Source: Allosphingosinicella sp.
GTDB taxonomy: Bacteria > Pseudomonadota > Alphaproteobacteria > Sphingomonadales > Sphingomonadaceae
Direction: 5' to 3'
Length of the DNA: 64,000 bases
Assembly: GCA_036525315.1 (NCBI GenBank)
Contig: DATDAS010000047.1
Span: 61,497-125,496 of the forward strand
Below the pieces are notes generated by a model. The model made no database searches. It saw nothing but the letters and a program-made list of their open reading frames with translations, and was not told the origin of the DNA. Position 1 is the stretch's first letter, and each line of letters opens with the position of its first letter. This document shows, in pieces, positions 1 to 52,738 of this stretch. The translations under genes and the position numbers were made by a program.

Positions 1-256
1 GAAAAGCGCGTAGTGTGGAAGCGGCTCCGCTTCCGCTGCCGGACTGGACGACCGCCTCAGCGCCGAGGAATGGGCCCGGCGCCGGGAAGCGCAGGTCCGC
101 GAAAGGCAGGGCTGATAGCCAAGGGCGACGACGCGAGCGCGAAGGAGCACAGGGCGTTCGGGATTAGGCGACAAAACGATAGAGGGAGACACATCTCAGG
201 CCGCCGCTTCGAGCGGCATGAACCTCTTTAGATATTGATTTATAAAGGAATCGTCC

Positions 257-283
257 TGCAACAAAATTGCTCATTTTGTTGCA
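257..283. promoter_or_regulatory. Perfect inverted repeat TGCAACAAAAT-N5-ATTTTGTTGCA; candidate operator or hairpin upstream of the three-gene cassette
   Basis: 257-267 is the exact reverse complement of 273-283. It lies in the most AT-rich stretch of the window (about 225-300), about 280 bp upstream of ORF 564. Function cannot be shown from sequence. Confidence 0.35.
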
Positions 284-563
284 TCGACAGTCTAATCCAG
301 AGGGAACGCCTGCTTCCGGGAACCGGCATAATCGGTGCGGACGACCGGCATTGGCGCAAAGCGGCTGCTCCACGCAAGGACCGCATCTGGCCGATTGCAG
401 TCCGACCGCTTTTAAGCAGAGACGTAATAAAGCGGCCACTCGAACCGGCCAACTGGTCCAAGCCAATTTCGACATCGAAAACCTTGTGGAATCATGCTCG
501 AACGTGTGACACGTGCTTTACGGACACTAAGCTGAAACTGATTTCTCTCGCGCGGACTCTGTA

Positions 564-3065
564 TTGCAACCTTTCGATATCGTGCAGGGAGCTCAATCGC
601 CGGCGAGCCCGCGGGTGTTCGTCATTGGCGCTTTCGACAGCCGTATCACTTTCTATGCTCAGCAGGTTCGCGCGCTCGAACTGATATACGCGCTGCGAAA
701 CCAAGCCATTTTGCAGGATACCCATCGTGTTGCAGTAGTTGGCGCCGGAGCCGCAGGCCTGAGCGCTGCCGCTGCGATCGCCCTGCTGTCCAAGGCCAGG
801 GTCGATCTATTTGAGCGTTCCGACGAAGTGCTTCCTCTCCAGCGCGCAAGCCAGCTGCGCCACCTCGATCCGCACATCTATGCGTGGCCGGCGATTGGCA
901 GCGACGATCCTGCGGCCGAACTGCCGATGCTGGACTGGACTGCAGGCCCGGCTGCCACGGTCCGGCAGGACGTGAAGCTGGAGTTCGAGAATGTCGTGGG
1001 ACTGTGCCAGCAGCGAATTCGCGTCAATTTGCGACACGAGGTCACGGAATCCGGTCTTGCAGGCGGCAAACCTCAGCTGATTTTCAGGCGCGATCCGCAC
1101 GTGGGAGAGGCTGGTGACGGTCCCGATCTGAGGGTGTCAGCGCAGGCCACCTTCGACCTCGTCATTCTCGCATTCGGATTTGGCCTTGAGCCTGCCCATA
1201 CGCCGGCCGGCGCAACCGTAAGCTACTGGAGCGATGCAAGCGTGCCCATGGTCGAATTCCAGGGCCGGGCGACTCCGCGCTTTCTGGTAAGCGGCAACGG
1301 GGACGGCGGTCTTATCGATCTCGTGGCCGCTGCAAGCGCAGACTTCGACCACGCGGGCATGATCCAGCAGATAGCAAATCAGGCTGGTATCGACGCAATA
1401 TTCGAGCGACTGGAGGCCATCGACAGGGAGGCCCAAGCGGCGTTTGATGTTGGCAACGGCTTTGATTTCCCGGCTGCTTACGATGCGAGCATTCGGGATG
1501 ATCTGGAGCAGCTGGGGCTGTTTGAACTGGTTACGAACCGGCTCCGCCCTGGTGTCAGACTCACGCTTCAGACACTGGGCCCGGAGGCATTCACTATTCA
1601 GACGGCCAGGCTCAACCGCCTTGCAGCCTATCTCGTCCTGCGCGCCTGCGAAACGAAGGCCCAGACCGAATTCACCCATATTCATGGGAATGATCTGACA
1701 CCGACTGCGGCGCCCTTCCCTCAACCTTACCCGGCCCCGCTCTGGTTCCAGTGCAGCGGCACGACCTTTGGAGTCGATGCTGCAATCATTCGCCACGGTC
1801 CGGATCGGTCGGGCGCGCGCCTACCATTCACGGAGCTGCTCGGAGATTATGCCACCACGCATAAGGCCTGGTTGAAGCTCCACGGCGAAGCCGTCAGGAT
1901 TCCAGCGATTTCACCGGCTGCCAGGGAAGCACTTGTGATCGCGGCCCGGCAGGCAGGGCTACCGCTACCGCTCTATCAGCAACGCCAGCTCCAGTTGCAG
2001 CAGCCGCGACGTATCAGAGTGCAACCGGCCGGTGCTGTCCTCAGATGGTCCGGCGATCTTGCGTCCGCTGCGATAGGGGACCTCTGGGCGACGCCAACGC
2101 CGCCGGTCAACATTTACGTTCCCTCTCCTCCCGACCAGCTGGGCGACGTCGCTGGCGCGATTGTCCGCTTCGCATTGCATTCCAGCCGAGCGACTCTGAT
2201 CGCCAGTCCAGGTGACTGGCGCACATTCATGGATCCGCTGACTACGGGATCGGCGCATGCCGAGCATCTGGCCCCCCCGGCGATCGAGGCCGGGGCACCG
2301 GCTGGCGCCACGCAAAATGTCGAACAGAGCGGCTCGGCTAACTTTGCTTTGGTGCTGCACGGTGCGTTGAACGCCTGGGTACTTAATGCGGCGAACCAGA
2401 CATTAGGTGATTTCATCGGAACCGGACGTGACCCGGGCCAAACAATCGGCTTCCCCGCTGCCCCCGATCTTCGGGTTCGCATGGGTGAGATCTGGGCTGG
2501 GTGGCATGCGCAACTGGCCGCGACGCCGGAACTTCTGGATCGCTTCCTTCGCCTAATGGTGTGCGCCGAAGATCGCGATGAAGGGCTCGACGAGGCGCGT
2601 GTTCTGATCGGACCTCGCAAACTTCCTTCGATCACCAGGGGGATAGCCGCGGCGCTGGCGGTTGCCTCGGCCTGGCCTGACACGCTGCCCCATGACGTTC
2701 GACCCGGCAATCTCTCCCGAATGCCTGGCGGAGGCGAGCAGAAATGCGGTCATGTCTGTGGTGCGGAACGCATCGCGCGCGAGCCCACGGCAATCGCCGC
2801 CGCCACATTCATGTGGAGAACGCACTTCGTCATCCTGTCTCAGCTGACGACGCCGATCGCCATCGCGGAACAGGCGGAGGTGGGAATCGGCGAAATCGGG
2901 CAGGCGCAACCCGGACTCGATGAGGCCACTGGCGCCGGCGGCCTGTTTCTGACGCTGGACGCCGCCTTCCGCACGGCCGCTGGCACGGGGCTGGCTGACC
3001 TCATCGCCCTTCTGAACACCGCGGAAACAGATTATTTTCAGCGGCTCGCCGCTGCAGCAGCCTAG
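564..3065 (+). CDS. Large protein with a two-dinucleotide-binding-domain flavoprotein-like N-terminus and a C-terminal ~380 aa with no recognisable motif; candidate effector (LmuA-like position) of a Lamassu/ABC-3C-type system
   Basis: 833-aa ORF. It carries VAVVGAGAAGLSAAAAIALLSKARVDLFER (GxGxxG followed by an acidic residue, a classic FAD/NAD(P) beta-alpha-beta motif), FDLVILAFGFG (an ATG-like motif) and FLVSGNGDGGLIDLV (a second GxGxxG-like motif). The stop TAG 3063-3065 overlaps the SD of the next gene. The start is uncertain: TTG 564, GTG 582 and GTG 615 are all possible. Confidence 0.7.
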   Translation: MQPFDIVQGAQSPASPRVFVIGAFDSRITFYAQQVRALELIYALRNQAILQDTHRVAVVGAGAAGLSAAAAIALLSKARVDLFERSDEVLPLQRASQLRHLDPHIYAWPAIGSDDPAAELPMLDWTAGPAATVRQDVKLEFENVVGLCQQRIRVNLRHEVTESGLAGGKPQLIFRRDPHVGEAGDGPDLRVSAQATFDLVILAFGFGLEPAHTPAGATVSYWSDASVPMVEFQGRATPRFLVSGNGDGGLIDLVAAASADFDHAGMIQQIANQAGIDAIFERLEAIDREAQAAFDVGNGFDFPAAYDASIRDDLEQLGLFELVTNRLRPGVRLTLQTLGPEAFTIQTARLNRLAAYLVLRACETKAQTEFTHIHGNDLTPTAAPFPQPYPAPLWFQCSGTTFGVDAAIIRHGPDRSGARLPFTELLGDYATTHKAWLKLHGEAVRIPAISPAAREALVIAARQAGLPLPLYQQRQLQLQQPRRIRVQPAGAVLRWSGDLASAAIGDLWATPTPPVNIYVPSPPDQLGDVAGAIVRFALHSSRATLIASPGDWRTFMDPLTTGSAHAEHLAPPAIEAGAPAGATQNVEQSGSANFALVLHGALNAWVLNAANQTLGDFIGTGRDPGQTIGFPAAPDLRVRMGEIWAGWHAQLAATPELLDRFLRLMVCAEDRDEGLDEARVLIGPRKLPSITRGIAAALAVASAWPDTLPHDVRPGNLSRMPGGGEQKCGHVCGAERIAREPTAIAAATFMWRTHFVILSQLTTPIAIAEQAEVGIGEIGQAQPGLDEATGAGGLFLTLDAAFRTAAGTGLADLIALLNTAETDYFQRLAAAAA

Positions 3066-3074
3066 GAGGATCCT

Positions 3075-3779
3075 ATGAGCGTCGATGCCCTGACGCCCTC
3101 GGAGGCGATACTGGAAGAACTTTTCGAGCGACTGGCTTGCGTGGCGAAGAAGCTTGATCTGGTGGTCGCCGACGCCTCAGCGCTGACGGAGAATGTTTTT
3201 CTGGGCGGCGGGGGGAGCGAGGTTGCACGACTGTCCCCGAGCGAGCTGCCGAGCCCTGTTCGTGCAATCAGTATCGGACGATACACCGTAATGCTGGGAA
3301 TGCTGCCGGAACAGCCGAGCCTGGAAGCGGTCACGGAAACTCTCAGGCGATTCCGCAACCAGTGCGTGATCGCGCGTTCCTATCTGTCGCCGGGCGAAGT
3401 CCTCGACCTTAATGGGATTCTGGTCGGCCCCAGAGGAAGCGAGCCGGTTGATGACTGGCGCCCTCTGGCGCTTCTGGTGGAGCGCGACGACAAGGTGGCA
3501 CGAAAATTCGCCTGGCTCAGACCCACCGACCCGGCGGCGGATGACGCAAGTTTCGAGGATCTGATCAAGCGGACCTTTATGGCCCGCCCATGGGTCAATG
3601 AGTCCACCTTCACCATGGCAGCGCTCGACAATCTCAACCGGGCGGCCGCCATGTGGGATGCATCGGTCCCTCGGGGCACCGTCGATGAATGGGTAAACCT
3701 CAGCCTGAACCCTCCCGAAGACGCCGATACGCTGGTGGACAGGCTGGTCGGTACTTGGGCACGGAGGGGGCAGGCATGA
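3075..3779 (+). CDS. Small (234 aa) protein with no recognisable motif; candidate middle component (LmuC / ABC-3C MC position)
   Basis: ATG 3075 is preceded by AGGAGGA (3064-3070). Its stop overlaps the next start as ATGA (3776-3779). The role is assigned from position and size only, with no motif support. Confidence 0.65.
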   Translation: MSVDALTPSEAILEELFERLACVAKKLDLVVADASALTENVFLGGGGSEVARLSPSELPSPVRAISIGRYTVMLGMLPEQPSLEAVTETLRRFRNQCVIARSYLSPGEVLDLNGILVGPRGSEPVDDWRPLALLVERDDKVARKFAWLRPTDPAADDASFEDLIKRTFMARPWVNESTFTMAALDNLNRAAAMWDASVPRGTVDEWVNLSLNPPEDADTLVDRLVGTWARRGQA

Positions 3780-6700
3780 GCGAGCTGTTCCTCAATTCTG
3801 TCCTCATCAAGGACTTCCGCACTTTCGGAAACTTCGAAGCCGAGATCGTGCCGGCTCCCGGACTCACGCTTCTTGTGGGGACCAACGGCTTGGGCAAGAG
3901 CAACTTTTTCGATGCGCTCGAATGGGGGCTGACCGGACAGGTCAGGCGTTTCAAGCGTCATATGGGCTCCGTAGACGAGGGACGATATCTCACGCGCAGG
4001 ACCCTGAAAGCGGGAAGCCATAGTGTCGCTCTGACTTTCAGCGACAACTCTCTACTGCAGCGCAGTCGCTCGGTGAAACCTACCTCGGCAAAAGTGGTCG
4101 AGTTGCTCAAAAGCCCGGAATGGACGGCTCCGATCGAAGATATCGGGACCTATCTGGCCTTCACGCATTTTCTCGGGCAGGCATCGGAGCAACGCTTCAC
4201 CAGTCGCGACCGGAACGAGCAATGGGCCTCGCTGCGAGGACCAAGTGGGATCGACCGACTTGACGAAGTCCGGAAGGGCCTGCGCGGGCGCGCGACCGAA
4301 ATGGCGTTCAACCGGCGCATCAGGCAGGAAAAAGAAGCGATTGCGGAGATCCAGCGGCTGATTGCGGAGTGGGACGCCTGGACCTCTCGCCTCAGGCTGC
4401 TGCGCGATGCCGCGGAAGCAACCGGTGTGATCTCTTCCGGTGATTTCGATCAACGCCTGTCGTCGCTAATCAGAAATGTGCGCGAGCGCGCACCCGAGTA
4501 TCGCGACCAACCAGACGCTGGTCTTCCCGATCGATTGACTGGGGTAATCGCAGCCCTGGACTCGCTTCAGCAGCAAAACACCGAACGGACCAGCCTCGTC
4601 CACTCGCTTGAGGATCTGCCCCAGCGATATGCCGTGCATCTGGCCGGGATCGGCTCCGAGGACCCAGCATATGCGGCTGCAGTCTCGGCTGCGGGATCGG
4701 CGAAGGATGAGCTGACCGCTCGTGCTCAGGCGGCGGCCGAAGCTCGCGAAGCGCTGGAGCACGCAACTCGCAATGTTGCGGCCCTGGAAACTGAAATAAC
4801 CCGCCTCGACACCGCACGCTCGGATCTCGAGGCGGCAAACGCGGCCGCAGCTCAGATCGAGCAGGCGAATAAGGAGCTTTCTCAGGCGACTGAACGGGCC
4901 TCGCAACTCCAGGGCGACCTTGGCTCGGCAAGGATTGAGATGGAGGGCGTAGACGAGCGCGCTGTGACCCTGGCGAACCTCACCGCGTCTCTCGCAGAGG
5001 CGCAGAGGATTTCGAAACTCGCCAGTCGCTTGTCCGCACTGAGGAGCAAGGCTGCCGCCAGCGCAGCACTCCGGTCCGAGGCCGAGGAGCGCGCCCGGAC
5101 AGCACAAGAGCTGCTGGCAGCGTTAATCCCCGAGAAGTCTGCATTTTCTGCGAGCCTTGAAGCCGCACGAGCTTCGCTGGAAGCAGTGCAGGTCCACGCG
5201 TCGGAAATGGCGTCCGCGCTTGCCGCCATCGCAGCCCATATCCACGAGAGCGACACCGATTGTCCGGTTTGCCGCACGTCATTCCAAAGGGGCCAGCTGA
5301 AGCGCCTCGCCGAAGAGACGGTCAATGTCCAGAATCCCGCGCTGGCGATGGCGACCGCGCGGGTCGCGGAACTGGAAGGGACGATTTCGCAGCAGACACA
5401 GCGGATCGTCGAGGCAGAAGAGCTTGTGCGGGCCGGGGAGGAAGTGGCCCGCACAGCGGAAGCAGACCAGCGCGAGCTGCAGGACGTCGAGCTCCAGATT
5501 CGAGCCACACTGTCGCCTGATGTGGCTGACCTGGAGACTGCCGTCGCCGCCAGCCTGAGAAGAGCGTCTGAGGCGGTTGCCGCAGCCCGAAGCGCGGATG
5601 CCCAGGATCAGGCCCGGAAATCTGAGCTGGCCTCACGGATCGAAACGCTTCAACAGGACATCGCGCGCGCAAACGAGGCGAATGAAAACCTGCGCGAACA
5701 TCTTACGGCGTTGGCCTCCTCGCGAAGGTCGGCCCTGGAGCGACTGACGGCGCTGGGATATTCGAATGCCGAGGCCCAGCGCATCAGTGCTGATCTCGCA
5801 TCTGCGAGAACCCGCCATTCGGAGGCGGTCGCTAGAAAAGCTGACGACGAGCTACTGCAGCGCCAGGCAGCAGAGGCGGAAAAAAACGCAAAAACACGGA
5901 AAGAACAGGCAGACGAGGCATTGCGCCGGCTGGTCGCCGAACGCGAAGCGGCTCGCGCTGCGGCAGATGCGCTGCGGAAGCGATGGAATCAGGCGGGTCT
6001 GGATGGCGCTCCGGACGCAGCGGCGCTGGAGGCCGGACTGTCACAGCTTCAGGAAGTATCGCGTGACATTCAGCGACTCGGCACTGAGCGAACGACTTTG
6101 GGCGCTGCCTACGAGGCGCTGGTCCGTAGCCGTGATCTGCAGGAGCTGACGGCCCAGATGCAGAAGGTGGGTGGCGCCGAAGCGGCGGATGCGCCGGAGC
6201 GGCATGCTCAGAGCCTGCGAGATCGTCTTGAAGTGGCCAGTCAGAAGCTTCGCACCAGCGAGGAAGCGCATACGGCAGCGAGCGGGCTTGCTGACAGGCT
6301 TCAGGAGGAAGCGAGGAACTTCTCGACGCAATTCCTGACCCCTCTGAACGGGCTCATCGACGATTTCAACGAAGCGCTCCTCAGCACACCCGGCGAATCT
6401 GTTCATCTCAACGCAGCACATCACAAGGACCGGACACAGTTCGACATGGGTCTCCGCTACCGGGACGAAATCGACGATATCCTGTTCGACACCAACCTTC
6501 CTCCGTCCGTTGTACTCAGCGAAGGACAGCTCGCGGCCAATGGCTTCAGCATTCTGTGCTCGGCGAGCACGGCATATCCCTGGTCGCGCTGGCGTGCCCT
6601 TCTGATGGATGACCCTCTCCAGCATAACGACATCATTCACGCCGCTGCGTTCGTCGACCTGATGCGCAATCTGGTCGAGCTGCAGAAATATCAGCTCATC

Positions 6701-6880
6701 ATGTCGAGCCATGATCGTGGCGAGACAGAGTTCATCCGGCGCAAGTTTGATGCGGCAGGCCTCCCTTGTTCAGTGGTGACGCTTACCGCACCTTCGCGCT
6801 CAGGGGTTCGATACTTGGCGCCCGACCATAATCGCGCGGCAGAAGAGGCACTCGCACAGAGACTGGCGCAGTCGGCTTAG
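3776..6880 (+). CDS. Rad50/SMC-type ABC ATPase with a long coiled coil and central CxxC hook (LmuB / ABC-3C ATPase-like)
   Basis: Walker A is LLVGTNGLGKSNFFDALEWGLTG (GTNGLGKS at 3878-3901). About 650 aa of A/E/R/L/Q-rich coiled-coil-like sequence follow, with CPVC at 5261-5272 near the middle. The C-terminus has the signature-like LSEGQ, Walker B ALLMDDP and H-loop MSSHD. ATG 3776 (GGAGGGGG upstream, ATGA overlap) is preferred over the longest-ORF start at 3689. Confidence 0.85.
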   Translation: MSELFLNSVLIKDFRTFGNFEAEIVPAPGLTLLVGTNGLGKSNFFDALEWGLTGQVRRFKRHMGSVDEGRYLTRRTLKAGSHSVALTFSDNSLLQRSRSVKPTSAKVVELLKSPEWTAPIEDIGTYLAFTHFLGQASEQRFTSRDRNEQWASLRGPSGIDRLDEVRKGLRGRATEMAFNRRIRQEKEAIAEIQRLIAEWDAWTSRLRLLRDAAEATGVISSGDFDQRLSSLIRNVRERAPEYRDQPDAGLPDRLTGVIAALDSLQQQNTERTSLVHSLEDLPQRYAVHLAGIGSEDPAYAAAVSAAGSAKDELTARAQAAAEAREALEHATRNVAALETEITRLDTARSDLEAANAAAAQIEQANKELSQATERASQLQGDLGSARIEMEGVDERAVTLANLTASLAEAQRISKLASRLSALRSKAAASAALRSEAEERARTAQELLAALIPEKSAFSASLEAARASLEAVQVHASEMASALAAIAAHIHESDTDCPVCRTSFQRGQLKRLAEETVNVQNPALAMATARVAELEGTISQQTQRIVEAEELVRAGEEVARTAEADQRELQDVELQIRATLSPDVADLETAVAASLRRASEAVAAARSADAQDQARKSELASRIETLQQDIARANEANENLREHLTALASSRRSALERLTALGYSNAEAQRISADLASARTRHSEAVARKADDELLQRQAAEAEKNAKTRKEQADEALRRLVAEREAARAAADALRKRWNQAGLDGAPDAAALEAGLSQLQEVSRDIQRLGTERTTLGAAYEALVRSRDLQELTAQMQKVGGAEAADAPERHAQSLRDRLEVASQKLRTSEEAHTAASGLADRLQEEARNFSTQFLTPLNGLIDDFNEALLSTPGESVHLNAAHHKDRTQFDMGLRYRDEIDDILFDTNLPPSVVLSEGQLAANGFSILCSASTAYPWSRWRALLMDDPLQHNDIIHAAAFVDLMRNLVELQKYQLIMSSHDRGETEFIRRKFDAAGLPCSVVTLTAPSRSGVRYLAPDHNRAAEEALAQRLAQSA

Positions 6881-7440
6881 GGATGACGGTTTGGATGTGC
6901 TTGCGGGCCAATGCCTTCCGCGACCTTCGCACGGACAAAGGATTGATTGCTCCCAGTGTCTGATTACGTCACCCGCCGGCTGACCCATCACGACGAGGAA
7001 GAGTAGGCAGCCCTCGTCCCGGAAAGCGAGCTGCCGCATCAACTACTGCCGCTGGTAACAGTCGCGCGCGGCGCGCCTCGTCCAGCTGCGTAGCGCTGGC
7101 TGCTCGCTTTGAGGAGCGGTCGGCCACTGATGCGGGCTTACGGGCCTCTCGCATTGGATTTTTGCTAGCGAATGCGCATGCCGTTCTCGTCGGCCCAGAA
7201 TCGCGCCGCCAGCTGACCGACGGCTTATGGGGTCGTTGGCCGACAGACCGAACGGCGACAATGGGCGCAATGAGACATCCCATGCCGTGGCGCGAGCCCT
7301 CAAATGACCGATCTCTGAGATCGCCAAGCTTTTGACGTTTTGGGACCCTTCAAAGTCGCCGAACAGCCGCCTTGCTTGAAGAAGCGCGGCCCCTCCCTTA
7401 ATGACCCCCTGCTGCAATGCAGCGCAGCCAGGGTCGCATC

Positions 7441-9444
7441 ATGTCGGAAATGTTCAGGATCACTCTCCCCGACGGCTCGGTTCGCGAGGTCGAGCCGGGG
7501 ACGACTCCCGCCGACATAGCGGCGGCGATCGGGCCGGGCCTGGCCAAGGCCGCGCTCGCGGCGCGGGTCGACGGCGAGGTGCGCGACCTGATGCGGCCGC
7601 TCGAGGGCGATTCGGAGCTTGCGCTGATCACGTCGCGCGACGAGGCCGACGCGCTCGAGCTCGCGCGCCACGATTATGCCCACGTCCTCGCCGAGGCGGT
7701 CCAGAACCTGTTCCCCGGCACCCAGATCACCTTCGGCCCGGCGACCGAGGAGGGATTCTATTACGATTTCGCGCCGACCGCCGAGCGGGGCCCCTTCACC
7801 GACGAGGACCTTCCGGCGATCGAGGACGAGATGCGGCGAATCATCGCGGCCGACCAGCCGCTGATCCGCGAAGTGTGGTCGCGCGAGCAGGTCCGCGATT
7901 TCTTCGAGAAGCAGGGCGAGGCCTTCAAGGCCGAATGGGTGATGGAGCTTCCCGCCGACGAGCAGATCAGCATGTACCGTTCGGGCGGCTGGCTCGACCT
8001 GTGCCGGGGCCCGCACCTCGTCTCGACCGGCAAGCTCGATCCGCAGGCCTTCAAGCTGACCCGCGTGTCGGGCGCCTATTGGCGCGGCGACCAGAAGAAC
8101 GCGATGCTGAGCCGGATCTACGGCACCGGCTGGCTCAACCGGAAGCAGCTCGACGCCCATCTCCTCCGGCTCGAGGAAGCGGCGAAGCGCGACCATCGCA
8201 AGATCGGCCAGGAGATGGACCTGTTCCACCTCCAGGCCGAGGCCCAGGGCTCGGTCTTCTGGCACGCCAAGGGCTATGCGATCTGGCGCGAGCTCGAGGC
8301 CTATATGCGCCGCCGCCTCGATTCTGCCGGCTATGACGAGGTGAAGACCCCGCAGCTGATGGACGCGCGGCTGTGGGAGGCGTCGGGCCATTGGGGCAAG
8401 TATCGCGAGAACATGTTCGTCGTGCCCGACGAGGTACCGAATACCGAGGAGGGCCAGCCCGTCTTCACCGGCGAGGGCGATCTGATGGCCCTGAAGCCGA
8501 TGAACTGCCCGGCGCACGTCCAGATCTTCCGCCAGGGGATCAAATCGTACCGCGACCTGCCGCTGCGCCTGGCCGAGTTCGGCTGCTGCCACCGCAACGA
8601 GCCGCACGGCGCGCTCCACGGAATCATGCGGGTCCGCCAGTTCACCCAGGACGACGCCCACATCTTCTGCCGCGAGGACCAACTGGTCGAGGAGGTCCGG
8701 ATCTTCTGCGACCTGCTCGATTCGGTCTACCGCGAGCTCGGCTTCGAGACCTATGCGATCAAGCTCGCGCTTCGCCCCGAGCAGCGTTTCGGGACCGACG
8801 CGCAATGGGACAAGGCCGAGCAGGACCTTCGCGAGGCCGTCCATGCCGCCGGGCGGGCCACGCCCGAGTTCGGCTGGGAGGAATTGCCGGGCGAAGGGGC
8901 CTTCTATTCCCCCAAGCTCGAATTCCATTTGACCGACGCGATCGGGCGGACCTGGCAGTGCGGAACGATCCAGGCCGATTACGTTCTCCCCGACCGGCTC
9001 GACGCCTCCTATGTCGGCGCCGACGGCGAGCGCCACCGGCCGGTCATGCTCCACCGGGCGATCCTCGGCACGTTCGAGCGGTTCATCGGAATCCTGATCG
9101 AGCATCATGCCGGCCGCTTTCCGCTGTGGCTCGCGCCGGTCCAGGCGGTGGTCGCGACGATCGTCTCGGAGGCGGATTCCTATGCCAATGAGGTCGCCGC
9201 GCGGCTCCGTGCGGCGGGCATCCGGACCGAGGCCGACCTGCGCAACGAGAAGATCAACTACAAGGTGCGCGAGCACAGCCTCGCCAAGGTCCCCTATCTG
9301 CTCGTGCTCGGAAAGCGCGAGGCCGAGGAGGGCAATGTGGCGCTCCGCCCGCTCGGCGCCGACGCCCGGCAGGAGGTGCTTCCGATCGACTCGCTGGTCG
9401 AGAGGCTGGCCGCCGAGGCGCTCGCGCCCGACCTTCGGAGCTGA
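7441..9444 (+). CDS. thrS: Threonine--tRNA ligase
   Basis: N-terminal TGS-like [14 protein letters not shown]. Class II core includes [50 protein letters not shown] and [10 protein letters not shown], followed by an anticodon-binding C-terminus. ATG 7441 was chosen inside ORF 7417-9444. Confidence 0.97.
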
Positions 9445-9677
9445 TTGCGAGCAAGGTTTCCGGCGGCGGATCGGCCACAGGCGCTGCACAAAAGTCGCCG
9501 CGGCGGGCGCCGCGCCTTTCCTTCGCGCCTATGAATCACTAGATCGGCGACGTGATTTCGGAATCACGCCCGCCGCTTCGGAAATTCGCTGTCGCGTCGT
9601 TGAAGCCAAAAACCATTATCCACTTTTTGGCGCGATGCTTTATGTGAGGCCGGAACGGCATCCACTCAGGAGAAGAG

Positions 9678-10223
9678 ATTATACGTCCCCCCATGACCCG
9701 GCGCCCGATGGCGCCCCCGATGAACGGCCCGCGCTACAACGAGTTCATCCTCTCGGCCAAGGTCCGCGTGATCGACGAAAATGGCGAGAATCTGGGCGTC
9801 ATGCTCACCGCCGAGGCCATCGAGCAGGCCGCCGAAGTCGGCCTCGATCTCGTCGAAGTCTCGCCCAATGCCGATCCGCCCGTGGCCAAGTTCCTCGACG
9901 TGGGGAAGTATAAGTACGAGGTCCAGAAAAAGGCCAACCTCGCCCGGAAGTCGCAGAAGACGCAGGAGATCAAGGAGATCAAGATGCGTCCGAACATCGA
10001 CGACCATGATTACGACGTGAAGATGAAGAAGGTTTTCAGCTTCATCGACGAGGGCGACAAGGTGAAGATCACCCTTCGCTTCCGGGGCCGCGAGCTTGCC
10101 CATGGCGAGCTCGGGATGCGGCTCCTCCAGCGGGTCCAGGCCGACGTCGCCGAGACCGCGAAGGTCGAGCAGCATCCGCGCATGGAAGGCCGGCAGATGC
10201 TGATGGTGCTCTCGCCCAAATAG
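9678..10223 (+). CDS. infC: Translation initiation factor IF-3, probably starting at AUU 9678
   Basis: IF-3 sequence throughout ([22 protein letters not shown] ... [14 protein letters not shown] ... [12 protein letters not shown]). AGGAG at 9668-9672 lies 5 nt before in-frame ATT 9678. The first ATG (9693) is 20 nt from the SD. Confidence 0.9.
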
Positions 10224-10481
10224 GGGATCGGTGCCTGCGGGGGCGCCTTCGCGTGCCGAGTACCCGCGACGAGGCAGGCGGTGGGGGATCGAGCTTCGGC
10301 CGTCGTCGGGTTGCCCGGCTCGTCGGACCTTTGCCTGGACCATCCTCTCATCTCGCGTAATTTCGTCCGGCATCCGGGCGTGAAGCCGTACGCGGCGCCC
10401 ACGGGACACGGAGCCGGACCATCAAGGTCTCGGCCGAGGATTTGGCGGCGCACTGAAGGAAAAGGGGCGAAGGATATTGTT

Positions 10482-10616
10482 CGCGCGGAGACGCGGAGGC
10501 GCGGAGAGTCGGCGCTTCTCGCGATAGCCGGCATGTCCCGTGCTGCGTTTACCGCGGTCTGGCCGTTCCGGCCGCGGCCGGGACAGTGCCCGGCGCCTCC
10601 GCGCCTCCGCGCCTCC
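10482..10616. repeat. Inverted tandem octamers: (GCGGAGNN)x3 at 10485-10508 facing (GCGCCTCC)x3 at 10593-10616
   Basis: Three perfect GCGCCTCC units lie at 10593-10616. Their near-complement CGCGGAGACGCGGAGGCGCGGAG is at 10484-10506. Together they could form a stem of about 22 bp around a loop of about 86 nt, inside a gene-less region. Confidence 0.6.
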
Positions 10617-10756
10617 GCGTGAACCCAACTTTCTTCTCTTCGAGCCGCATCGTAAAAGTCGTCCGTGCCCGGGTGGGCAGCGAGCCGGGGGGAATGGAAG
10701 CCGGCGCGGCTCGGAGCGGCGGCGAGCCGGCGGCATGGATCTCAGCCTAAGGGGGC

Positions 10757-10776
10757 CGATATAAGTATAGTGTCCC
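10757..10776. repeat. AT-rich 20-nt motif CGATATAAGTATAGTGTCCC, an exact copy of one arm of the 38-bp palindrome at 39817-39854
   Basis: 20/20 identity with 39835-39854. The flanks are also similar (TAATAA versus TATTAA). It is intergenic, about 285 bp upstream of the TonB-dependent receptor gene. Confidence 0.8.
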
Positions 10777-11060
10777 CGTAATAAGCGGTCCTTCCGGGGC
10801 CGGAATGGTCCTCCGGGCTTTCCGCCTGCGCTCATGCCCCGTCGATACCGGCCAGGGCCGGAAATGCGGAAAATCAGCTTTCCGTAGCGGCATCGCGGTG
10901 GCGGGCGCGGCCACGAGTTTCACTCTGCAACGCGATTGTTGCGCAAATGCAATAAAGCCCGGAAAGCTGCGGAAAAACGCGGTTTCTCGCTGGCGGGCAC
11001 TCCCGCGATTCAGTAGCTTCGTCGCAAATAAGAACTGAAATCAGGAGCAGGGAGGCCCCG

Positions 11061-13862
11061 ATGCGCAAATCCATTTGGCTGATGTCCGCAGGTATCTTCG
11101 CGATGAGCGCGAGCCCCGCATTCGCGCAGGACCAGACGAGCCCGACCGGCCAGACCAGCCCGACCGAGGAATCGGCCGAGGTCGACGCCGATGCCGACGC
11201 AAGCCCGGCCGACGACGCCGCCGACCAGGGCGACATCTTCGTCACCGCCCAGGGCCGGACCCAGATATTGCAGGACGTTCCGCTCGCGGTCTCGGCCGTT
11301 TCCGCGGATTCGATGCAGAACAGCGGCGCGACCGACATCCGCCAGCTCAACCAGCTCGCACCGTCCCTGCTCGTCTCCTCGACGGGCAGCGAGGCCAACG
11401 GCTCGGCCCGAATCCGCGGAATCGGAACGGTCGGCGACAATCCCGGCCTTGAAAGCTCGGTCGCCGTTTTCATCGACGGAGTCTATCGATCGCGGAGCGG
11501 CATCGGATTGAACGAGCTCGGCGAGATCGAGCGGATCGAGGTGCTTCGCGGACCGCAGGGCACGTTGTTCGGCCGAAACGCCTCGGCGGGCCTGATCCAC
11601 ATCATCAGCAAGAAGCCGAACATGAACGAGATGGAGGGCTTCGCCTCCGCCACCTACGGCAATTACAATTACATGCGCGGCGACGCCGGGATCACCGGCC
11701 CGATCGGCGACGACCTGGGCTACCGCCTCGACGCGGTCTACGCCAAGCGCGACGGCTTCTATGACGACGTCGTCAACGACACCGACGTCAACGACCGCGA
11801 CCGCTTCTTCGTCCGCGGCCAGCTCATGTACGAGCCGAACGACGACCTCAACGTCAGGCTGATCGCCGATTATTCGAAGCGCGACGAGAAATGCTGCGGC
11901 GCGGTCTATCTCAACCGCGCCTTCAACCCGCTGATCGGAAACCTCAACGAGGTCGCCAATCCGCTCCTCAGCCCGACCGGCAACAACATCATCAACGTGC
12001 TCCGCGACCTCGGCCAGAATTTGAACGCGTTCAACGATCCGTTCAGCCGCGACCTCTACGTCACTCCGGGCCGCACCTATGGCGGCGAGACCGAGGACAA
12101 GGGCGTATCGCTCGAGGTCAATTGGGACTTCGGAAACGCCAGCCTGACCTCGATCAGCGCCTATCGCGACTATGGTTCAGACCAGGCCTCGGACACCGAT
12201 TATTCGATGGTCGACATCCTCTACCGGGCCGACAATGGCGGCGGATCGCGCGGCTTCGAGACCCTCAGCCAGGAGCTCAGGCTCCAGGGCCAGGCGTTCA
12301 ACGACAAGCTCGACTGGCTCGTCGGCGCCTATTTCGCCGACGAGGATCTGAAGGTCACCGACAATCTGAGGTTCGGCGCCCAATATGGCCGGTTCGCGAC
12401 CTGCCGGCTGCTCTCCGGAACGGCGCTCGGCGGCTTCTACTCGCCGGCGACCCCGGGCTGCATCAGCCCGACCGGACGGGCGGTGATCAGCGGCGCTCTG
12501 GCGCCGGCCGTGCCCTCGCCGTTCGGACCCGCGGGACCGCTGGTGCTCGCCGGCTTCGATCGGCTCGAATCGGTCAACGACCGCGGAAGCACGCTCGACG
12601 TCTATACCCAGAACAGCCGCAACTACGCCTTCTTCACGCACAACATCTTCCACATCACCAACAGGCTCGCGCTGACCCTGGGCGCCCGCTACACGCACGA
12701 GCGCAAGGAGATGCGGACCACCTTCGGCAACGACAACACCGCCTGCCCGGCGCAGCAGGCGGCGCTCGGGCCTTTGCTCGCCAATCCGGGCCTCGCGGCT
12801 CTCGCGGGCGGCCTGATCAGCCTGACATGCCAGGGCAATTCGACGTCCGAGCTCAATGGCGTGTCGATCAACGACGAGCGAAGCGAAAGCGAGTTCACCG
12901 GCACCGGCGTGCTCTCGCTGGAGGCGAGCAAGGACCTGTTGCTCTACGCCAGCTGGTCGCGCGGCTATAAGGCCGGCGGCTTCAACCTCGACCGGTCCGC
13001 GCTCAAGTCGCCGATCCTGCCTTTCGCCGCCGTCGGCGGAGCACAGGCCCTGGTCGGCAACCTCCAGTTCGATCCGGAGATCAACACCTCCTACGAGCTC
13101 GGCGCGAAATATTCGCGCGGGCCGGTCACCGTGAACGCCGTTGTTTTCCGCCAGAAGTTCCGCAACTTCCAGCTCAACACGTTCAACGGCACGGTCTTCC
13201 TGGTCCAGACCATCAACGGCTGCGACAGTGATCTGGGCGGAGCCGACCGGGACCTCAGCGCGGCGACCGGCGCCTGCCCGGCCGACGACGTCAGCTGGGG
13301 CGTCCGCTCGCAGGGCGTCGAGGTGGAAAGCCAGATCCGGCCCCATCGCGACCTCCGGGTCGGCCTCGGAGTGACCTATGCCGAGACCAAATATCGGAGC
13401 AATCTGGTCGGCAACGAGAATGGAGCCCCGCTCGATCCGGCGCTCCGCAAGCTGCCCGGCGACAATCTGTCCAACGCGCCCGACCTGGTCGGAATCGCCT
13501 CGCTGACCTGGACCCCGCCGGTCGGCGGCTCGGGAATGTCGGCTTTGTTCTACGTCGATTCGCGGATCACCAGCGACTACAATACCGGCTCCGACCTGTT
13601 CCCGCAGAAGGAGCAGAGCAGCTACGCGATCTTCAACGCGCGCATCGGAATCCGCGGGCCGGACCAGAAATGGGCGGTCGAGCTCTGGGCGCAGAATCTG
13701 TTCGACCAGGATTATACCCAGGTCGCGTTCAACACGCCGTTCCAGGCCGGAGCGACGGCGGCGCCGTTCGTCGATCCGCAATTCCCGGGCGGCCGGCAGA
13801 TCTTCTCGGCCTTCCTCGCCGAGCCGCGCACCTACGGACTCACCGGCCGCTTCCGCTTCTGA
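11061..13862 (+). CDS. TonB-dependent receptor
   Basis: Signal peptide MRKSIWLMSAGIFAMSASPAFAQ, TonB-box-like DIFVTAQG, plug motif IEVLRGPQGTLFGRNASAG, a long beta-barrel region and the terminal TYGLTGRFRF ending in aromatic F. Confidence 0.95.
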   Translation: MRKSIWLMSAGIFAMSASPAFAQDQTSPTGQTSPTEESAEVDADADASPADDAADQGDIFVTAQGRTQILQDVPLAVSAVSADSMQNSGATDIRQLNQLAPSLLVSSTGSEANGSARIRGIGTVGDNPGLESSVAVFIDGVYRSRSGIGLNELGEIERIEVLRGPQGTLFGRNASAGLIHIISKKPNMNEMEGFASATYGNYNYMRGDAGITGPIGDDLGYRLDAVYAKRDGFYDDVVNDTDVNDRDRFFVRGQLMYEPNDDLNVRLIADYSKRDEKCCGAVYLNRAFNPLIGNLNEVANPLLSPTGNNIINVLRDLGQNLNAFNDPFSRDLYVTPGRTYGGETEDKGVSLEVNWDFGNASLTSISAYRDYGSDQASDTDYSMVDILYRADNGGGSRGFETLSQELRLQGQAFNDKLDWLVGAYFADEDLKVTDNLRFGAQYGRFATCRLLSGTALGGFYSPATPGCISPTGRAVISGALAPAVPSPFGPAGPLVLAGFDRLESVNDRGSTLDVYTQNSRNYAFFTHNIFHITNRLALTLGARYTHERKEMRTTFGNDNTACPAQQAALGPLLANPGLAALAGGLISLTCQGNSTSELNGVSINDERSESEFTGTGVLSLEASKDLLLYASWSRGYKAGGFNLDRSALKSPILPFAAVGGAQALVGNLQFDPEINTSYELGAKYSRGPVTVNAVVFRQKFRNFQLNTFNGTVFLVQTINGCDSDLGGADRDLSAATGACPADDVSWGVRSQGVEVESQIRPHRDLRVGLGVTYAETKYRSNLVGNENGAPLDPALRKLPGDNLSNAPDLVGIASLTWTPPVGGSGMSALFYVDSRITSDYNTGSDLFPQKEQSSYAIFNARIGIRGPDQKWAVELWAQNLFDQDYTQVAFNTPFQAGATAAPFVDPQFPGGRQIFSAFLAEPRTYGLTGRFRF

Positions 13863-13878
13863 GCCTCGCGGACGGAGG

Positions 13879-13914
13879 AAAGGGCCCTCGCCGGAAGCGG
13901 CGGGGGCCTTTTGA
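13879..13914 (+). terminator. Probable rho-independent terminator after the TonB-dependent receptor gene
   Basis: Imperfect GC-rich hairpin AAGGGCCCTCGCC-GGAA-GCGGCGGGGGCCTT followed by TTTTGA, 17 nt after the stop. Confidence 0.5.
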
Positions 13915-13928
13915 CGGCCCCGACAGGC

Positions 13929-14013: not shown

Positions 14014-14026
14014 ATCTGGGGGAATC

Positions 14027-52717: not shown

Positions 52718-52738
52718 GCGCGGGCTCGCCAAGGATGA

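What the first reader, a model, noticed from the sequence alone, without database searches (positions are those of the whole stretch)
564..3065. Effector candidate combines an FAD/NAD(P)-binding two-domain fold with a C-terminal region of about 380 aa and unknown fold
Seen: VAVVGAGAAGLSAAAAIALLSKARVDLFER (GxGxxG plus the terminal acidic residue of beta-2), FDLVILAFGFG, and a second nucleotide-binding-like FLVSGNGDGGLIDLV about 180 aa later. This is the spacing expected for the two-dinucleotide-binding-domain flavoproteins (FMO, pyridine-nucleotide disulfide reductase, NDH-2 class). Residues from about 450 to 833 have no motif I can name. Inference: by analogy with LmuA proteins, the variable N-terminal enzyme would be the toxic output and the C-terminal part would dock to the middle component or ATPase. 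Possible outputs include NAD(P)H consumption, reactive oxygen generation, or oxidation of a nucleobase or metabolite. None of these can be distinguished from sequence.
Basis: partly seen in the sequence, partly recalled or inferred. Interest (0 to 1): 0.8.

Follow-up and report, generated by a model that had tools for sequence, protein, structure and literature searches.

The report
Lamassu effector with flavoenzyme-like domain
This gene encodes the effector subunit (LmuA) of an already catalogued "Lamassu-FMO" anti-phage system, a flavin-monooxygenase-like enzyme domain joined to a named docking domain; the kind is known, but what the enzyme does to stop an infection has never been shown.

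Summary
ORF 564-3065 (833 aa) carries a canonical GxGxxG...E motif (residues 60-84), FDLVILAFGFG (197-207) and a second GxGxxG (244-249) 184 residues after the first. An AlphaFold2 model (pLDDT 86.6) matches class B flavoprotein monooxygenases best in the PDB.

The protein is not an orphan. It matches one PADLOC LmuA model over its full length (E=3e-279). The next two genes are LmuC and a long LmuB (SMC/Rad50-like ATPase).

The "unnamed" C-terminal part is Pfam PF20278 (CTD2 of ABC-3C systems, E=2e-62). It does lack any solved structural relative.

Published work already lists a monooxygenase/FMO ("double-Rossmann") LmuA effector, specific to long Lamassu. This locus is therefore a new member of a known kind, 94% identical to a Croceicoccus marinus protein. 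The three genes travel together as a 6.9-kb cassette.

What remains open is the chemistry. No published mechanism was found. I favour NAD(P)H- and O2-dependent redox toxicity after release from LmuB/LmuC; this is inferred, not shown.

One added result: the same N-domain, with 35 signature residues checked and largely or wholly kept, also sits in the effector position of PD-Lambda-4-like, NACHT/STAND, TPR and receiver-domain proteins. It is a widespread plug-in module.

The parts
564..3065 (+). lmuA: effector subunit of a long-type Lamassu (ABC-3C) system, 833 aa, TTG start
   Evidence: ORF. PADLOC LmuA PDLC03858 E=3e-279, covering residues 1-831 and profile positions 2-820 of 827. 340 homologues found, the closest 94% identical from Croceicoccus marinus.
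564..1898 (+). N-terminal flavoenzyme-like effector domain (residues about 1-445), with two Rossmann-type dinucleotide-binding domains
   Evidence: Foldseek against the PDB gives class B flavoprotein monooxygenases on top. A profile search against PDB sequences gives the Zonocerus FMO 5nmw at E=9e-8. Pfam Pyr_redox_2 scores 33.4 bits. The domain boundary comes from fusions that carry only this part.
726..818 (+). First dinucleotide-binding motif (residues 55-85; G60xG62xxG65 ... E84), the probable FAD site
   Evidence: Invariant G60/G62/G65/A69 and near-invariant E84. Strand-helix-strand in the model. Aligned to the FAD motif of FMO 5nmw.
1278..1325 (+). Second dinucleotide-binding motif (residues 239-254; S243-G-x-G-D-G-G-L-x-D252), the probable NAD(P)H site
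   Evidence: Invariant S243 G244 G246 D247 G248 L250 D252. The profile alignment runs into the NADPH GxGxxG of FMO 5nmw. Strand E239-243 followed by helix H246-257.
2040..3014 (+). C-terminal domain CTD2 (residues 493-817), the docking and probable oligomerisation module; it contains the acidic stretch CAEDRDEGLDE (667-677)
   Evidence: Pfam PF20278 E=2e-62. CTD-only AF2 model pTM 0.83. No PDB relative by fold or by sequence. The role is inferred from solved short-Lamassu complexes and predicted long-Lamassu complexes (PMC12663957).
3075..3779 (+). lmuC: middle component, 234 aa
   Evidence: PADLOC LmuC PDLC03876 E=3.6e-82. Pfam PF20289 MComp1. It starts 9 nt after the lmuA stop codon.
3776..6880 (+). 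lmuB: long SMC/Rad50-like ATPase, 1034 aa; its ATG overlaps the lmuC stop (ATGA)
   Evidence: PADLOC LmuB PDLC03868 E=0, with the profile starting at residue 30 of the listed ORF. Walker A at 35, CPVC zinc hook at 496, LSEGQ at 914, Walker B ALLMDD at 941. Pfam AAA_23, SMC_N and a weak Rad50_zn_hook. The C. marinus orthologue is annotated with the same 1034 aa.
389..7268 (.). Extent of the DNA shared with Croceicoccus marinus CP060052 (93.6% identity over 461-6974, plus two short pieces), i.e. the three-gene cassette
   Evidence: blastn of the window against L046. The flanking genes differ between the two genomes.

Best explanation
The ORF is LmuA, the effector subunit of a complete long-type Lamassu (ABC-3C) anti-phage/anti-plasmid system of the catalogued FMO subtype.

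Shown here:
- Family membership of all three genes.
- The two-Rossmann flavoenzyme fold of residues about 1-445.
- The CTD2 identity of residues 493-817.
- Conservation of the operon across genomes.
- Re-use of the N-domain in other defence scaffolds.

Inferred from solved Cap4-type Lamassu complexes: in the resting state LmuA is held inactive on an LmuB dimer plus LmuC through its CTD. LmuB/LmuC sense DNA ends or replication intermediates of an invader. ATP hydrolysis releases LmuA, which oligomerises through its CTD and switches on the N-domain.

My inference for the output: the N-domain binds FAD at the first site and NAD(P)H at the second, and reacts with O2. Once activated it burns NAD(P)H, either uncoupled (making H2O2) or while oxygenating an abundant metabolite. 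The cell's reducing power then collapses and growth stops before the phage completes its cycle (abortive infection), in parallel with NAD+ depletion by SIR2/TIR effectors.

Sub-probabilities:
- It is LmuA of Lamassu-FMO: 0.95.
- The N-domain is a catalytically active redox effector: 0.7.
- The lethal output is NAD(P)H consumption and/or reactive oxygen: 0.35.
For: PADLOC gives LmuA 3e-279, LmuC 3.6e-82 and LmuB E=0. Pfam gives CTD2 2e-62 and MComp1.

The order A-C-B is kept in 35 loci from many proteobacterial genera, including a 28-32%-identical clade. The genes are tightly coupled: a 9-nt gap, then an ATGA overlap. LmuB has an intact Walker A, signature motif, Walker B 'hhhhDD' and CxxC hook, as described for long Lamassu (PMC12663957).

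Fold evidence: AF2 pLDDT 86.6. All 47 significant PDB hits are nucleotide-binding Rossmann-type proteins, nearly all two-dinucleotide-binding-domain flavoproteins, with FMO/BVMO/NMO first. The profile hit to FMO 5nmw spans both nucleotide motifs.

Effector role: the same N-domain, with the 35 signature residues checked largely or wholly conserved, replaces the N-terminus of PD-Lambda-4_A-like proteins (P0186; PDLC03991 2e-184). It also precedes NACHT+HEAT (P0218), and it is fused to P-loop/TPR, TPR and receiver domains.

The cassette is mobile: 93.6% identical DNA lies in a different context in C. marinus, next to MobA/MobL, resolvases and IS66. GC content is lower than in the rest of the window.

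All hosts recovered belong to lineages I know to be mostly aerobic (for the taxa; their physiology is my own knowledge, not tested). This fits an O2-dependent output but is only circumstantial.

Literature: monooxygenase/FMO LmuA is listed in bioRxiv 10.1101/2022.05.11.491447 and PMC12663957. Release followed by CTD-mediated tetramerisation as the activation step is described in PMC12663957 and bioRxiv 10.1101/2025.06.23.660979.
Against: - No experiment on any Lamassu-FMO system was found. Even defence activity is unproven for this subtype.
- The activation model comes from short, Cap4-type Lamassu with a different CTD (CTD7/CTD12) and a different LmuC. Long Lamassu is predicted to dock LmuA near the LmuB heads instead (PMC12663957).
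- The domain lacks the FMO/BVMO fingerprint FxGxxxHxxx[YWF] (0 of 60 and 0 of 30 sequences). It has no Pfam FMO-like hit and only 9-16% identity and TM 0.3-0.5 to solved enzymes. Oxygen activation cannot be assumed.
- About 70 residues of helices are inserted after the second GxGxxG, so NAD(P)H binding is unverified.
- I had no model coordinates, so the invariant residues could not be mapped onto a cofactor site.
- From my own knowledge, uncoupled turnover of classical FMOs is slow.
Confidence: 0.7

Rival explanations
1. Substrate-specific oxygenase. Once activated, the N-domain uses FAD, NAD(P)H and O2 to oxygenate one particular target, for example N-hydroxylation or N-oxidation of a nucleobase, nucleotide, polyamine or amino acid, or sulfoxidation of a thiol cofactor. 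Toxicity comes from the product or from loss of the substrate, not from NAD(P)H drain.
For: The nearest solved structures are substrate-specific class B monooxygenases: pyrrolizidine N-oxygenase, ornithine hydroxylases KtzI/SidA/PvdA, trimethylamine monooxygenase and cyclohexanone monooxygenase. About 20 conserved residues lie outside the two nucleotide motifs: R27, T29, Q33, Q34, R36, Q93, H104, W108, W125, E209, Y221, W222, H263, N351 and R410. That is more than cofactor binding alone should need and suggests a defined substrate pocket.
Against: No substrate can be inferred. No partner biosynthetic or transport genes accompany the module in any scaffold. The FMO/BVMO fingerprint is absent.
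Confidence: 0.3
2. Electron-transfer reductase rather than oxygenase. The domain works like NDH-2, AIF/FSP1, ferredoxin reductase or a disulfide reductase. It passes electrons from NAD(P)H to quinones, thiols, metals or a protein partner, and so short-circuits respiration or redox homeostasis.
For: The only Pfam family above threshold is Pyr_redox_2, at 33.4 bits, matched by 29 of 30 members. Ferredoxin reductase BphA4 and dihydropyrimidine dehydrogenase appear among the Foldseek hits. FSP1/AIFM2 and NADH oxidases appear in the profile search, but only through the first motif.
Against: Class B monooxygenases outrank them by fold. No cysteine is invariant in the N-domain, so there is no CxxxxC redox disulfide. 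No Pyr_redox_dim domain was found. No membrane-anchoring segment was seen in the model.
Confidence: 0.12
3. Non-catalytic nucleotide-binding module. The double Rossmann domain only binds FAD, NAD(P) or another nucleotide as a regulatory ligand or scaffold. The killing is done by something else, for example the CTD or LmuB itself.
For: Cofactor chemistry is untested. An Asp (D247) is invariant inside the second glycine-rich loop, and a helical insert follows it. Both are atypical features.
Against: The domain sits exactly where nucleases, SIR2 and proteases sit in other LmuA proteins (PMC12663957) and in PD-Lambda-4-like and NACHT proteins. None of the scaffolds carries another recognisable effector. 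The strict 35-residue signature across scaffolds points to catalysis.
Confidence: 0.06
4. A housekeeping flavoenzyme that merely lies next to an SMC-like ATPase.
For: None beyond the generic NAD/FAD-binding Pfam hits.
Against: It is covalently fused to the ABC-3C CTD2 domain. It always occurs with LmuC and LmuB in 35 loci. It is patchily distributed and carried on a mobile cassette. There is no NCBIfam equivalog.
Confidence: 0.01

Closest known systems
Lamassu-FMO subtype of long Lamassu (DefenseFinder subtype; PADLOC LmuA PDLC03858 / LmuC PDLC03876 / LmuB PDLC03868; the 'monooxygenase' LmuA of Millman et al. 2022; the 'double-Rossmann dehydrogenase' ABC-3C effector of Krishnan et al. 2020 as cited in PMC10586767)
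   Same: Everything tested matches: gene order A-C-B, full-length matches to all three models, CTD2, MComp1, a long LmuB with Walker B 'DD' and one CxxC.
   Different: Only the sequence itself differs. It is 94% identical to the nearest deposited protein, and the exact sequence is not on record. The genomic site also differs.
DdmABC / Lamassu Vc-Cap4 of Vibrio cholerae and BcLmuAB (solved short Lamassu complexes, PDB 9NY5, 9NYG, 9NXX)
   Same: An SMC/Rad50-like LmuB dimer acts as the DNA-end sensor. LmuA is built as an N-terminal enzyme plus a C-terminal docking domain. LmuC is the middle component. Activation by release and CTD-mediated oligomerisation is the model borrowed here.
   Different: The effector is a Cap4 nuclease, not a flavoenzyme. 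The CTD is CTD7/CTD12 (a helical bundle), not CTD2. LmuC is MC3, not MComp1. LmuB is about 600 aa against 1034 aa here. The CTD2 model has no fold match to any PDB chain, including these entries.
Class B flavoprotein monooxygenases (FMO, Baeyer-Villiger and N-hydroxylating monooxygenases; e.g. 3d1c, 5nmx, 4a9w, 6era, 4tm0)
   Same: A single polypeptide with FAD and NADPH Rossmann domains. There are two GxGxxG motifs about 180 residues apart. These enzymes are the best fold matches (E 4e-5, prob 1.0) and the best sequence-profile match (5nmw, 9e-8).
   Different: Identity is 9-16% and TM only 0.3-0.5. The FxGxxxHxxxY/W fingerprint is absent. 'ATG'-type crossover motifs are replaced by GFGxE (205-209) and RxG (410-412). 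There is an extra N-terminal strand and helix with invariant T29, Q33, Q34 and R36 (RITxYxQQxR motif; R27 near-invariant). There is a PHxxxWP motif at 103-109 and a helical insert of about 70 residues after the second GxGxxG. No Pfam FMO-like hit was found.
SIR2/TIR NAD+-depleting effectors of Lamassu, Thoeris, Avs and other systems
   Same: They occupy the same position in the same scaffolds. The proposed logic is also the same: destroy a central dinucleotide cofactor pool to abort infection.
   Different: The fold and chemistry are unrelated. Here the proposed target is reduced NAD(P)H plus O2, and this has not been demonstrated.
PD-Lambda-4_A and bacterial NACHT/STAND (NLR-like) defence proteins
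   Same: Some members carry this very N-domain as their terminal module: P0186, P0187, P0188 and P0193; P0218; and L040.
   Different: Their sensor part is a P-loop STAND-type NTPase with repeats in a single polypeptide, not an SMC-like ATPase with a separate middle component.

Membership tests
Lamassu (ABC-3C) defence system, long type | LmuB: SMC/Rad50-like ABC ATPase with Walker A, signature motif, Walker B hhhhDD, a long coiled coil and a CxxC zinc hook | tested here: met
   PADLOC LmuB PDLC03868 E=0. GTNGLGKS at 35, CPVC at 496, LSEGQ at 914, ALLMDD at 941; 1034 aa. Pfam AAA_23, SMC_N and a weak Rad50_zn_hook.
Lamassu (ABC-3C) defence system, long type | LmuC middle component encoded between lmuA and lmuB | tested here: met
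   PADLOC LmuC 3.6e-82. Pfam PF20289 MComp1 at 33.9 bits, above the 27.3 threshold. Position 3075-3779.
Lamassu (ABC-3C) defence system, long type | LmuA built as a variable N-terminal effector domain plus an ABC-3C C-terminal domain | tested here: met
   PADLOC LmuA 3e-279 over the full length. Pfam PF20278 CTD2 2e-62 at residues 493-817.
Lamassu (ABC-3C) defence system, long type | Conserved three-gene operon across unrelated genomes, with patchy or mobile distribution | tested here: met
   A-C-B is present in 35 of the loci with enough DNA. The cassette is shared at 93.6% with C. marinus in a different, mobile-element context.
Lamassu (ABC-3C) defence system, long type | Protects against phage or plasmid in an ATPase- and effector-dependent way | not testable with these tools
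   No experimental report for the FMO subtype was found. Other subtypes have been validated (bioRxiv 10.1101/2022.05.11.491447).
Class B flavoprotein monooxygenases (FMO/BVMO/NMO) | Two Rossmann-type dinucleotide-binding domains with two GxGxxG motifs in one chain | tested here: met
   GAGAAG at 60 and GNGDGG at 244, conserved in 60/60 and 30/30 sequences. Fold match and profile alignment.
Class B flavoprotein monooxygenases (FMO/BVMO/NMO) | Family fingerprint FxGxxxHxxxY(K/R) or FxGxxxHxxxW(P/D) between the two nucleotide motifs | tested here: not met
   The regex F.G...H...[YWF] is absent from the query and from all 60 and all 30 aligned relatives. Only a non-homologous HxxxWP is present at 104-109.
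Class B flavoprotein monooxygenases (FMO/BVMO/NMO) | Match to the family's sequence models (Pfam FMO-like, Pyr_redox_3, Lys_Orn_oxgnase) at their thresholds | tested here: not met
   The window protein has no such hit. Only 6 of 30 relatives give weak Pyr_redox_3 hits and 2 of 30 give weak Lys_Orn_oxgnase hits.
Class B flavoprotein monooxygenases (FMO/BVMO/NMO) | Binds FAD tightly, is reduced by NADPH and forms a C4a-(hydro)peroxyflavin | not testable with these tools
   This needs purified protein. No model coordinates were available to inspect the site.
Class I pyridine nucleotide-disulfide oxidoreductases | Pfam Pyr_redox_2 match above threshold | tested here: met
   33.4 bits against 26.1 for the N-domain alone. 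In the full-length scan it is below threshold, at 20.4 bits.
Class I pyridine nucleotide-disulfide oxidoreductases | Redox-active cysteine pair (CxxxxC) and a C-terminal dimerisation domain | tested here: not met
   No invariant Cys occurs in residues 1-450. No Pyr_redox_dim hit was found.

The most novel reading that the evidence does not exclude
The N-terminal domain defines a large, uncharacterised family of flavin-dependent redox effectors: 469 clusters at E<=1e-30 and 1673 at E<=1e-10. At least four kinds of immune scaffold plug it in: Lamassu, PD-Lambda-4-like, NACHT/STAND-TPR and receiver-domain proteins. If it is catalytically active, it would be a mode of abortive infection not yet described for any defence system. 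The mode would be oxygen-dependent destruction of NAD(P)H, production of peroxide, or oxidative modification of a nucleotide or metabolite. This Lamassu operon would be a compact, tractable system in which to discover that chemistry.
Probability: 0.5. Interest if true: 0.7.

Novelty: new member of a known kind. Interest (0 to 1): 0.35.

Why it matters
The locus itself adds no new kind of system. Lamassu with an FMO-like or 'double-Rossmann' effector has been in the literature since 2020-2022 and is present in both defence-system detection tools.

It matters for a narrower reason. This effector is one of the few recurrent defence outputs whose biochemistry is completely unknown, and nothing like a flavin monooxygenase has been shown to execute abortive infection.

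The analysis here gives three practical handles:
- A clean domain boundary at about residue 445.
- A 35-residue catalytic signature for mutagenesis.
- The observation that the same module is swapped into PD-Lambda-4-like, NACHT/STAND and receiver-domain proteins, which argues that it is self-sufficient and activated by induced proximity.

An oxygen-dependent immune effector would also predict that protection depends on aeration. That prediction can be tested directly.

Tried and rejected
- **Exact-sequence look-up.** The window's LmuA was looked up in the assembly index twice, once with L and once with M as first residue. It is not on record, so the source genome could not be named. The nearest is C. 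marinus at 94%.
- **Direct PDB sequence search with the full protein.** It gave only chance-level GxGxxG hits. A profile of the N-domain was needed.
- **CTD against the PDB.** Nothing was found by sequence profile or by fold. Solved short-Lamassu CTDs are therefore not detectably related.
- **CTD alignment built from locus translations.** It was rebuilt from substrings of database proteins.
- **BFVD viral structure search.** It returned only generic flavoproteins and no phage counterpart.
- **Flanking direct or inverted repeats that could mark cassette ends.** Only short, chance-level matches were found, and only 388 nt are available upstream. No MobA remnant lies in the window, and there are no tRNA genes.
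- **Promoter scan.** It found no sigma-70 consensus upstream. This is uninformative for an alphaproteobacterium-like genome.
- **Literature.** No paper with 'Lamassu-FMO' as a term was found. Krishnan et al. 2020 is not held, so it is cited only through PMC10586767. PD-lambda-4 is not described in the main text of PMC9519451. A broad flavin/NADPH search was too unspecific to be useful.
- **Explanations rejected.** A housekeeping enzyme. A disulfide reductase, because there is no conserved cysteine pair. A bona fide FMO family member, because the fingerprint is absent.


Full report
**1. The observation**

The three strings are present:
- VAVVGAGAAGLSAAAAIALLSKARVDLFER at residues 56-85.
- FDLVILAFGFG at 197-207.
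- FLVSGNGDGGLIDLV at 240-254.

The two GxGxxG motifs (GAGAAG at 60, GNGDGG at 244) lie 184 residues apart. In an alignment of 60 full-length homologues, G60, G62, G65, G205, F206, G207, E209, S243, G244, G246, D247 and G248 are invariant and E84 is nearly so. The same columns stay invariant when N-domains only 28-32% identical are added. The motifs are therefore real and under selection.

**2. What the gene is**

The protein matches one PADLOC model, LmuA PDLC03858, from end to end (residues 1-831 on profile positions 2-820 of 827, E=3e-279). The next ORF (3075-3779) is LmuC (3.6e-82), and the third is LmuB (E=0).

The LmuB profile begins at residue 30 of the listed ORF. The real start is therefore the ATG at 3776, which overlaps the lmuC stop codon (ATGA). 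The C. marinus orthologue is annotated with the same 1034 aa.

Pfam names residues 493-817 of LmuA as PF20278, 'C-terminal domain 2 of the ABC-three component systems' (2e-62). It names LmuC as PF20289 MComp1.

LmuB has these motifs:
- Walker A, GTNGLGKS, at 35.
- One CxxC zinc hook, CPVC, at 496.
- The ABC signature LSEGQ at 914.
- Walker B, ALLMDD, at 941.

The 'hhhhDD' Walker B and the long coiled coil are the marks of 'long' Lamassu described in PMC12663957. The operon is therefore a complete long-type Lamassu (ABC-3C) system.

**3. The N-terminal domain**

An AlphaFold2 model built on the 60-sequence alignment is confident (mean pLDDT 86.6). It shows a strand-helix-strand at 55-83 and a strand-helix at 239-257 carrying the two glycine-rich motifs.

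Foldseek against the PDB gives 47 hits with E<=1e-3. All are nucleotide-binding Rossmann-type proteins, nearly all of them two-dinucleotide-binding-domain flavoproteins. The list is led by class B monooxygenases:
- A Staphylococcus FMO (3d1c, 4.3e-5).
- The Zonocerus pyrrolizidine N-oxygenase (5nmx).
- Cyclohexanone monooxygenase.
- The ornithine hydroxylases KtzI, SidA and PvdA.
- Trimethylamine monooxygenase.
- The Stenotrophomonas FMO (target TM up to 0.52).

Identity is only 9-16%.

A sequence profile of 30 N-domains finds the same Zonocerus FMO as the best PDB sequence (E=9e-8). One stretch lies on the FAD motif. A second stretch runs from residue 135 into the NADPH-binding GxGxxG, which is aligned with SGNG.

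Scanned alone, the N-domain passes Pfam's Pyr_redox_2 threshold (33.4 bits against 26.1). 29 of 30 relatives match that family, 6 match Pyr_redox_3 weakly, and none matches FMO-like.

The class B fingerprint FxGxxxHxxxY/W is absent from every sequence examined. No cysteine is invariant, so a disulfide-reductase mechanism is unlikely.

The family has its own signature:
- An extra N-terminal strand and helix with RITxYxQQxR (27-36).
- Q93.
- PHxxxWP (103-109).
- P121 and W125.
- GFGxE (205-209).
- YW (221-222).
- SGxGDGGLxD (243-252).
- H263, N351 and RxG (410-412).

About 70 residues of helices are inserted after the second motif.

So it works like, and folds like, a class B flavin monooxygenase. 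It is not a member of that family by the family's own sequence criteria.

**4. The C-terminal domain**

A separate AF2 model of residues 451-833 is confident (pLDDT 83, pTM 0.83). It is a mixed helix/sheet fold with one disordered loop.

It has no relative in the PDB by fold (best E=0.22, prob 0.06) or by sequence profile. This agrees with PMC12663957, which found no similarity of long LmuA CTDs to known domains. That paper describes them as helices plus a beta-sheet and a conserved acidic loop predicted to bind LmuB. Here the conserved acidic stretch is CAEDRDEGLDE at 667-677 (consensus CAxDDD).

The statement 'no motif I can name' does not.

**5. Context and distribution**

A pattern scan of one genome per species returned 45 loci. 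tblastn with the three window proteins shows the A-C-B order in 35 of them, including a divergent clade of about 790 aa (L034-L043). Most of the remaining loci are cut by contig ends.

The hosts are Alpha-, Beta- and Gammaproteobacteria, for example Rhizobium, Bradyrhizobium, Caulobacter, Sphingopyxis, Xanthobacter, Pseudomonas, Paraburkholderia and Duganella.

The nearest protein, from Croceicoccus marinus (94% identity, named 'ABC-three component system protein'), lies between a MobA/MobL relaxase, resolvases and IS66 on one side and an RNase T-like gene and N6-methyltransferases on the other.

Only window positions 389-7268 are shared with that genome, at 93.6% nucleotide identity. In the window the cassette abuts what look, by eye, like thrS and infC. 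It also has a lower G+C content (0.60-0.63) than the rest of the window (0.65-0.71). The three genes therefore move as a unit.

**6. The N-domain outside Lamassu**

Three loci carry the N-domain with no LmuB or LmuC:
- L040 (Massilia): a 1285-aa protein with an N-terminal P-loop (AAA_22, weak NACHT) and TPR region. The flavoenzyme domain is at the C-terminus. PADLOC LmuA profile positions 3-423 match at 2e-107.
- L045 (Minicystis): N-domain plus TPR.
- L044 (Verrucomicrobiia): the domain is internal.

A word-index search with the L040 domain found further forms: receiver-domain fusions (P0126, P0127), HAD fusions (P0134, P0138) and proteins of about 420-520 aa that are standalone or truncated.

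An exhaustive HMMER search of 1.84 billion representatives with residues 1-450 found 2232 clusters at E<=1e-3, 1673 at <=1e-10 and 469 at <=1e-30. Their lengths run from about 400 to about 2000 aa.

Among the best 150:
- 41 have a CTD2 detectable with my close-clade model.
- 27 have a Walker A motif next to the domain.
- 4 of those 27 (P0186-P0188, P0193) carry the body of PD-Lambda-4_A (PDLC03991, 2e-184, profile positions 180-1283). In these proteins the flavoenzyme domain replaces the usual N-terminus.

P0218 is N-domain + NACHT (28.6 bits, above threshold) + HEAT repeats.

The 35 signature residues are largely or wholly conserved in twelve proteins checked across these scaffolds.

A receiver-domain version sits among a histidine kinase, further receiver proteins, a Metallophos-NACHT-HEAT protein and a PNP_UDP_1 gene.

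This is the behaviour of a self-contained effector module that is switched on by whatever sensor it is attached to.

**7. Mechanism**

Shown in this work:
- The identities of the three proteins.
- The fold class of the N-domain.
- The modularity of the N-domain.

Taken from solved Cap4-type Lamassu (PMC12663957; bioRxiv 10.1101/2025.06.23.660979; 10.1101/2025.03.14.643221):
- LmuA is held as an inactive monomer on LmuB2-LmuC through its CTD.
- DNA ends and ATP turnover release it.
- CTD-mediated tetramerisation activates the N-domain.

Those authors suggest this activation may be general. However, their complexes use different CTD and LmuC families, and long Lamassu is predicted to dock LmuA near the LmuB heads. 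For this locus the step is an inference.

The output is my inference: an FAD/NAD(P)H/O2 enzyme whose activated turnover drains NAD(P)H and/or produces peroxide.

The main rival is oxygenation of a specific metabolite or nucleobase. The many conserved residues outside the nucleotide motifs favour this rival. Minor rivals are an electron-transfer reductase and a non-catalytic binder.

The hosts recovered appear to be mostly aerobic lineages (taxa; their physiology is my own knowledge). This fits an O2-dependent output, but it may only reflect the phylogenetic range of the scan.

**8. Comparison with what is known, and novelty**

- Millman et al. (bioRxiv 10.1101/2022.05.11.491447) list monooxygenase among LmuA effector domains.
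- PMC12663957 names FMO as an effector specific to long Lamassu among the DefenseFinder subtypes.
- PMC10586767, citing Krishnan et al. 2020, lists a 'double-Rossmann dehydrogenase domain'.
- PADLOC has a full-length model for this architecture.

None of the papers found reports any experiment or mechanism for this subtype.

The locus is therefore a new member of a known kind. The residual interest lies in the unknown chemistry and in how widely the module occurs outside Lamassu. The papers I could read do not mention that occurrence: PMC12663957 lists Cap4, Mrr, protease and Sir2, but not FMO, as effectors shared with other systems.

**Verdict:** Interest 0.35.

Noticed in passing
window 389-7268 vs L046 (C. 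marinus CP060052) 9563-16557: The three-gene Lamassu cassette is shared at 93.6% nucleotide identity, but the flanks differ. In C. marinus it lies between MobA/MobL, resolvases and IS66 on one side and RNase_T and N6_Mtase genes on the other. In the window it abuts what look like thrS and infC. About 255 nt present upstream of lmuA in C. marinus are missing from the window.
   Followed up: partly
window 1-8000 vs the rest: G+C is 0.60-0.63 over the cassette and 0.65-0.71 elsewhere, consistent with horizontal acquisition.
   Followed up: no
L040 5457-9314 (+), Massilia MAG: A 1285-aa protein with an N-terminal P-loop (AAA_22, weak NACHT) and TPR region, and the LmuA-type flavoenzyme domain at its C-terminus. 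No LmuB or LmuC is nearby. A sirtuin-like gene lies immediately upstream on the other strand.
   Followed up: partly
P0186, P0187, P0188, P0193 (about 1520-1550 aa); L050 120-4766: Proteins in which the flavoenzyme domain (residues about 2-448) replaces the first 180 or so profile positions of PD-Lambda-4_A (PADLOC PDLC03991, 2e-184). This is effector swapping in a second defence family.
   Followed up: partly
P0218 (1959 aa): Flavoenzyme domain + NACHT (above the Pfam threshold) + HEAT repeats. This is an NLR-like architecture with the domain in the effector position. Several other proteins of 1500-1970 aa (P0181, P0182, P0184, P0227, P0232, P0292) have a Walker A motif about 80-150 residues after the domain.
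   Followed up: partly
L047 8001-9794 (P0127) and neighbours: A receiver-domain (Response_reg) fusion of the flavoenzyme domain. It sits next to a histidine kinase, two more receiver proteins, a 1333-aa Metallophos-NACHT-HEAT protein and a PNP_UDP_1 gene. This may be a two-component-controlled conflict system.
   Followed up: no
L036 8001-10560 (Gammaproteobacteria MAG): LmuA residues 5-250 are followed directly by LmuB residues 423-1028. This looks like an internal deletion that removed the rest of lmuA, lmuC and the first part of lmuB, leaving a decayed system.
   Followed up: no
L034, L035, L037-L039, L041-L043: A divergent clade of LmuA-FMO proteins of about 790 aa (28-32% identity) with equally divergent LmuC (26-34%) and LmuB. 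Related database proteins (P0136-P0147) still carry PF20278.
   Followed up: partly
L049 8001-9557 (P0158, Hephaestia caeni): A 518-aa version of the domain with several signature residues changed (T29N, Q93Y, H104N, G207K, H263A). It overlaps a downstream 281-aa gene of unknown function. Peptidase_C14, patatin and Exo_endo_phos genes are nearby.
   Followed up: no
window 7417-9444, 9693-10223, 11061-13862: By eye these ORFs look like threonyl-tRNA synthetase, translation initiation factor IF-3 and a TonB-dependent receptor. No tool was run on them.
   Followed up: no
window 48000-58000: AT skew swings from about -0.26 (50-52 kb) to +0.27 (52-56 kb) and back to -0.21 (56-58 kb). This is probably a change of coding strand of long genes.
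   Followed up: no
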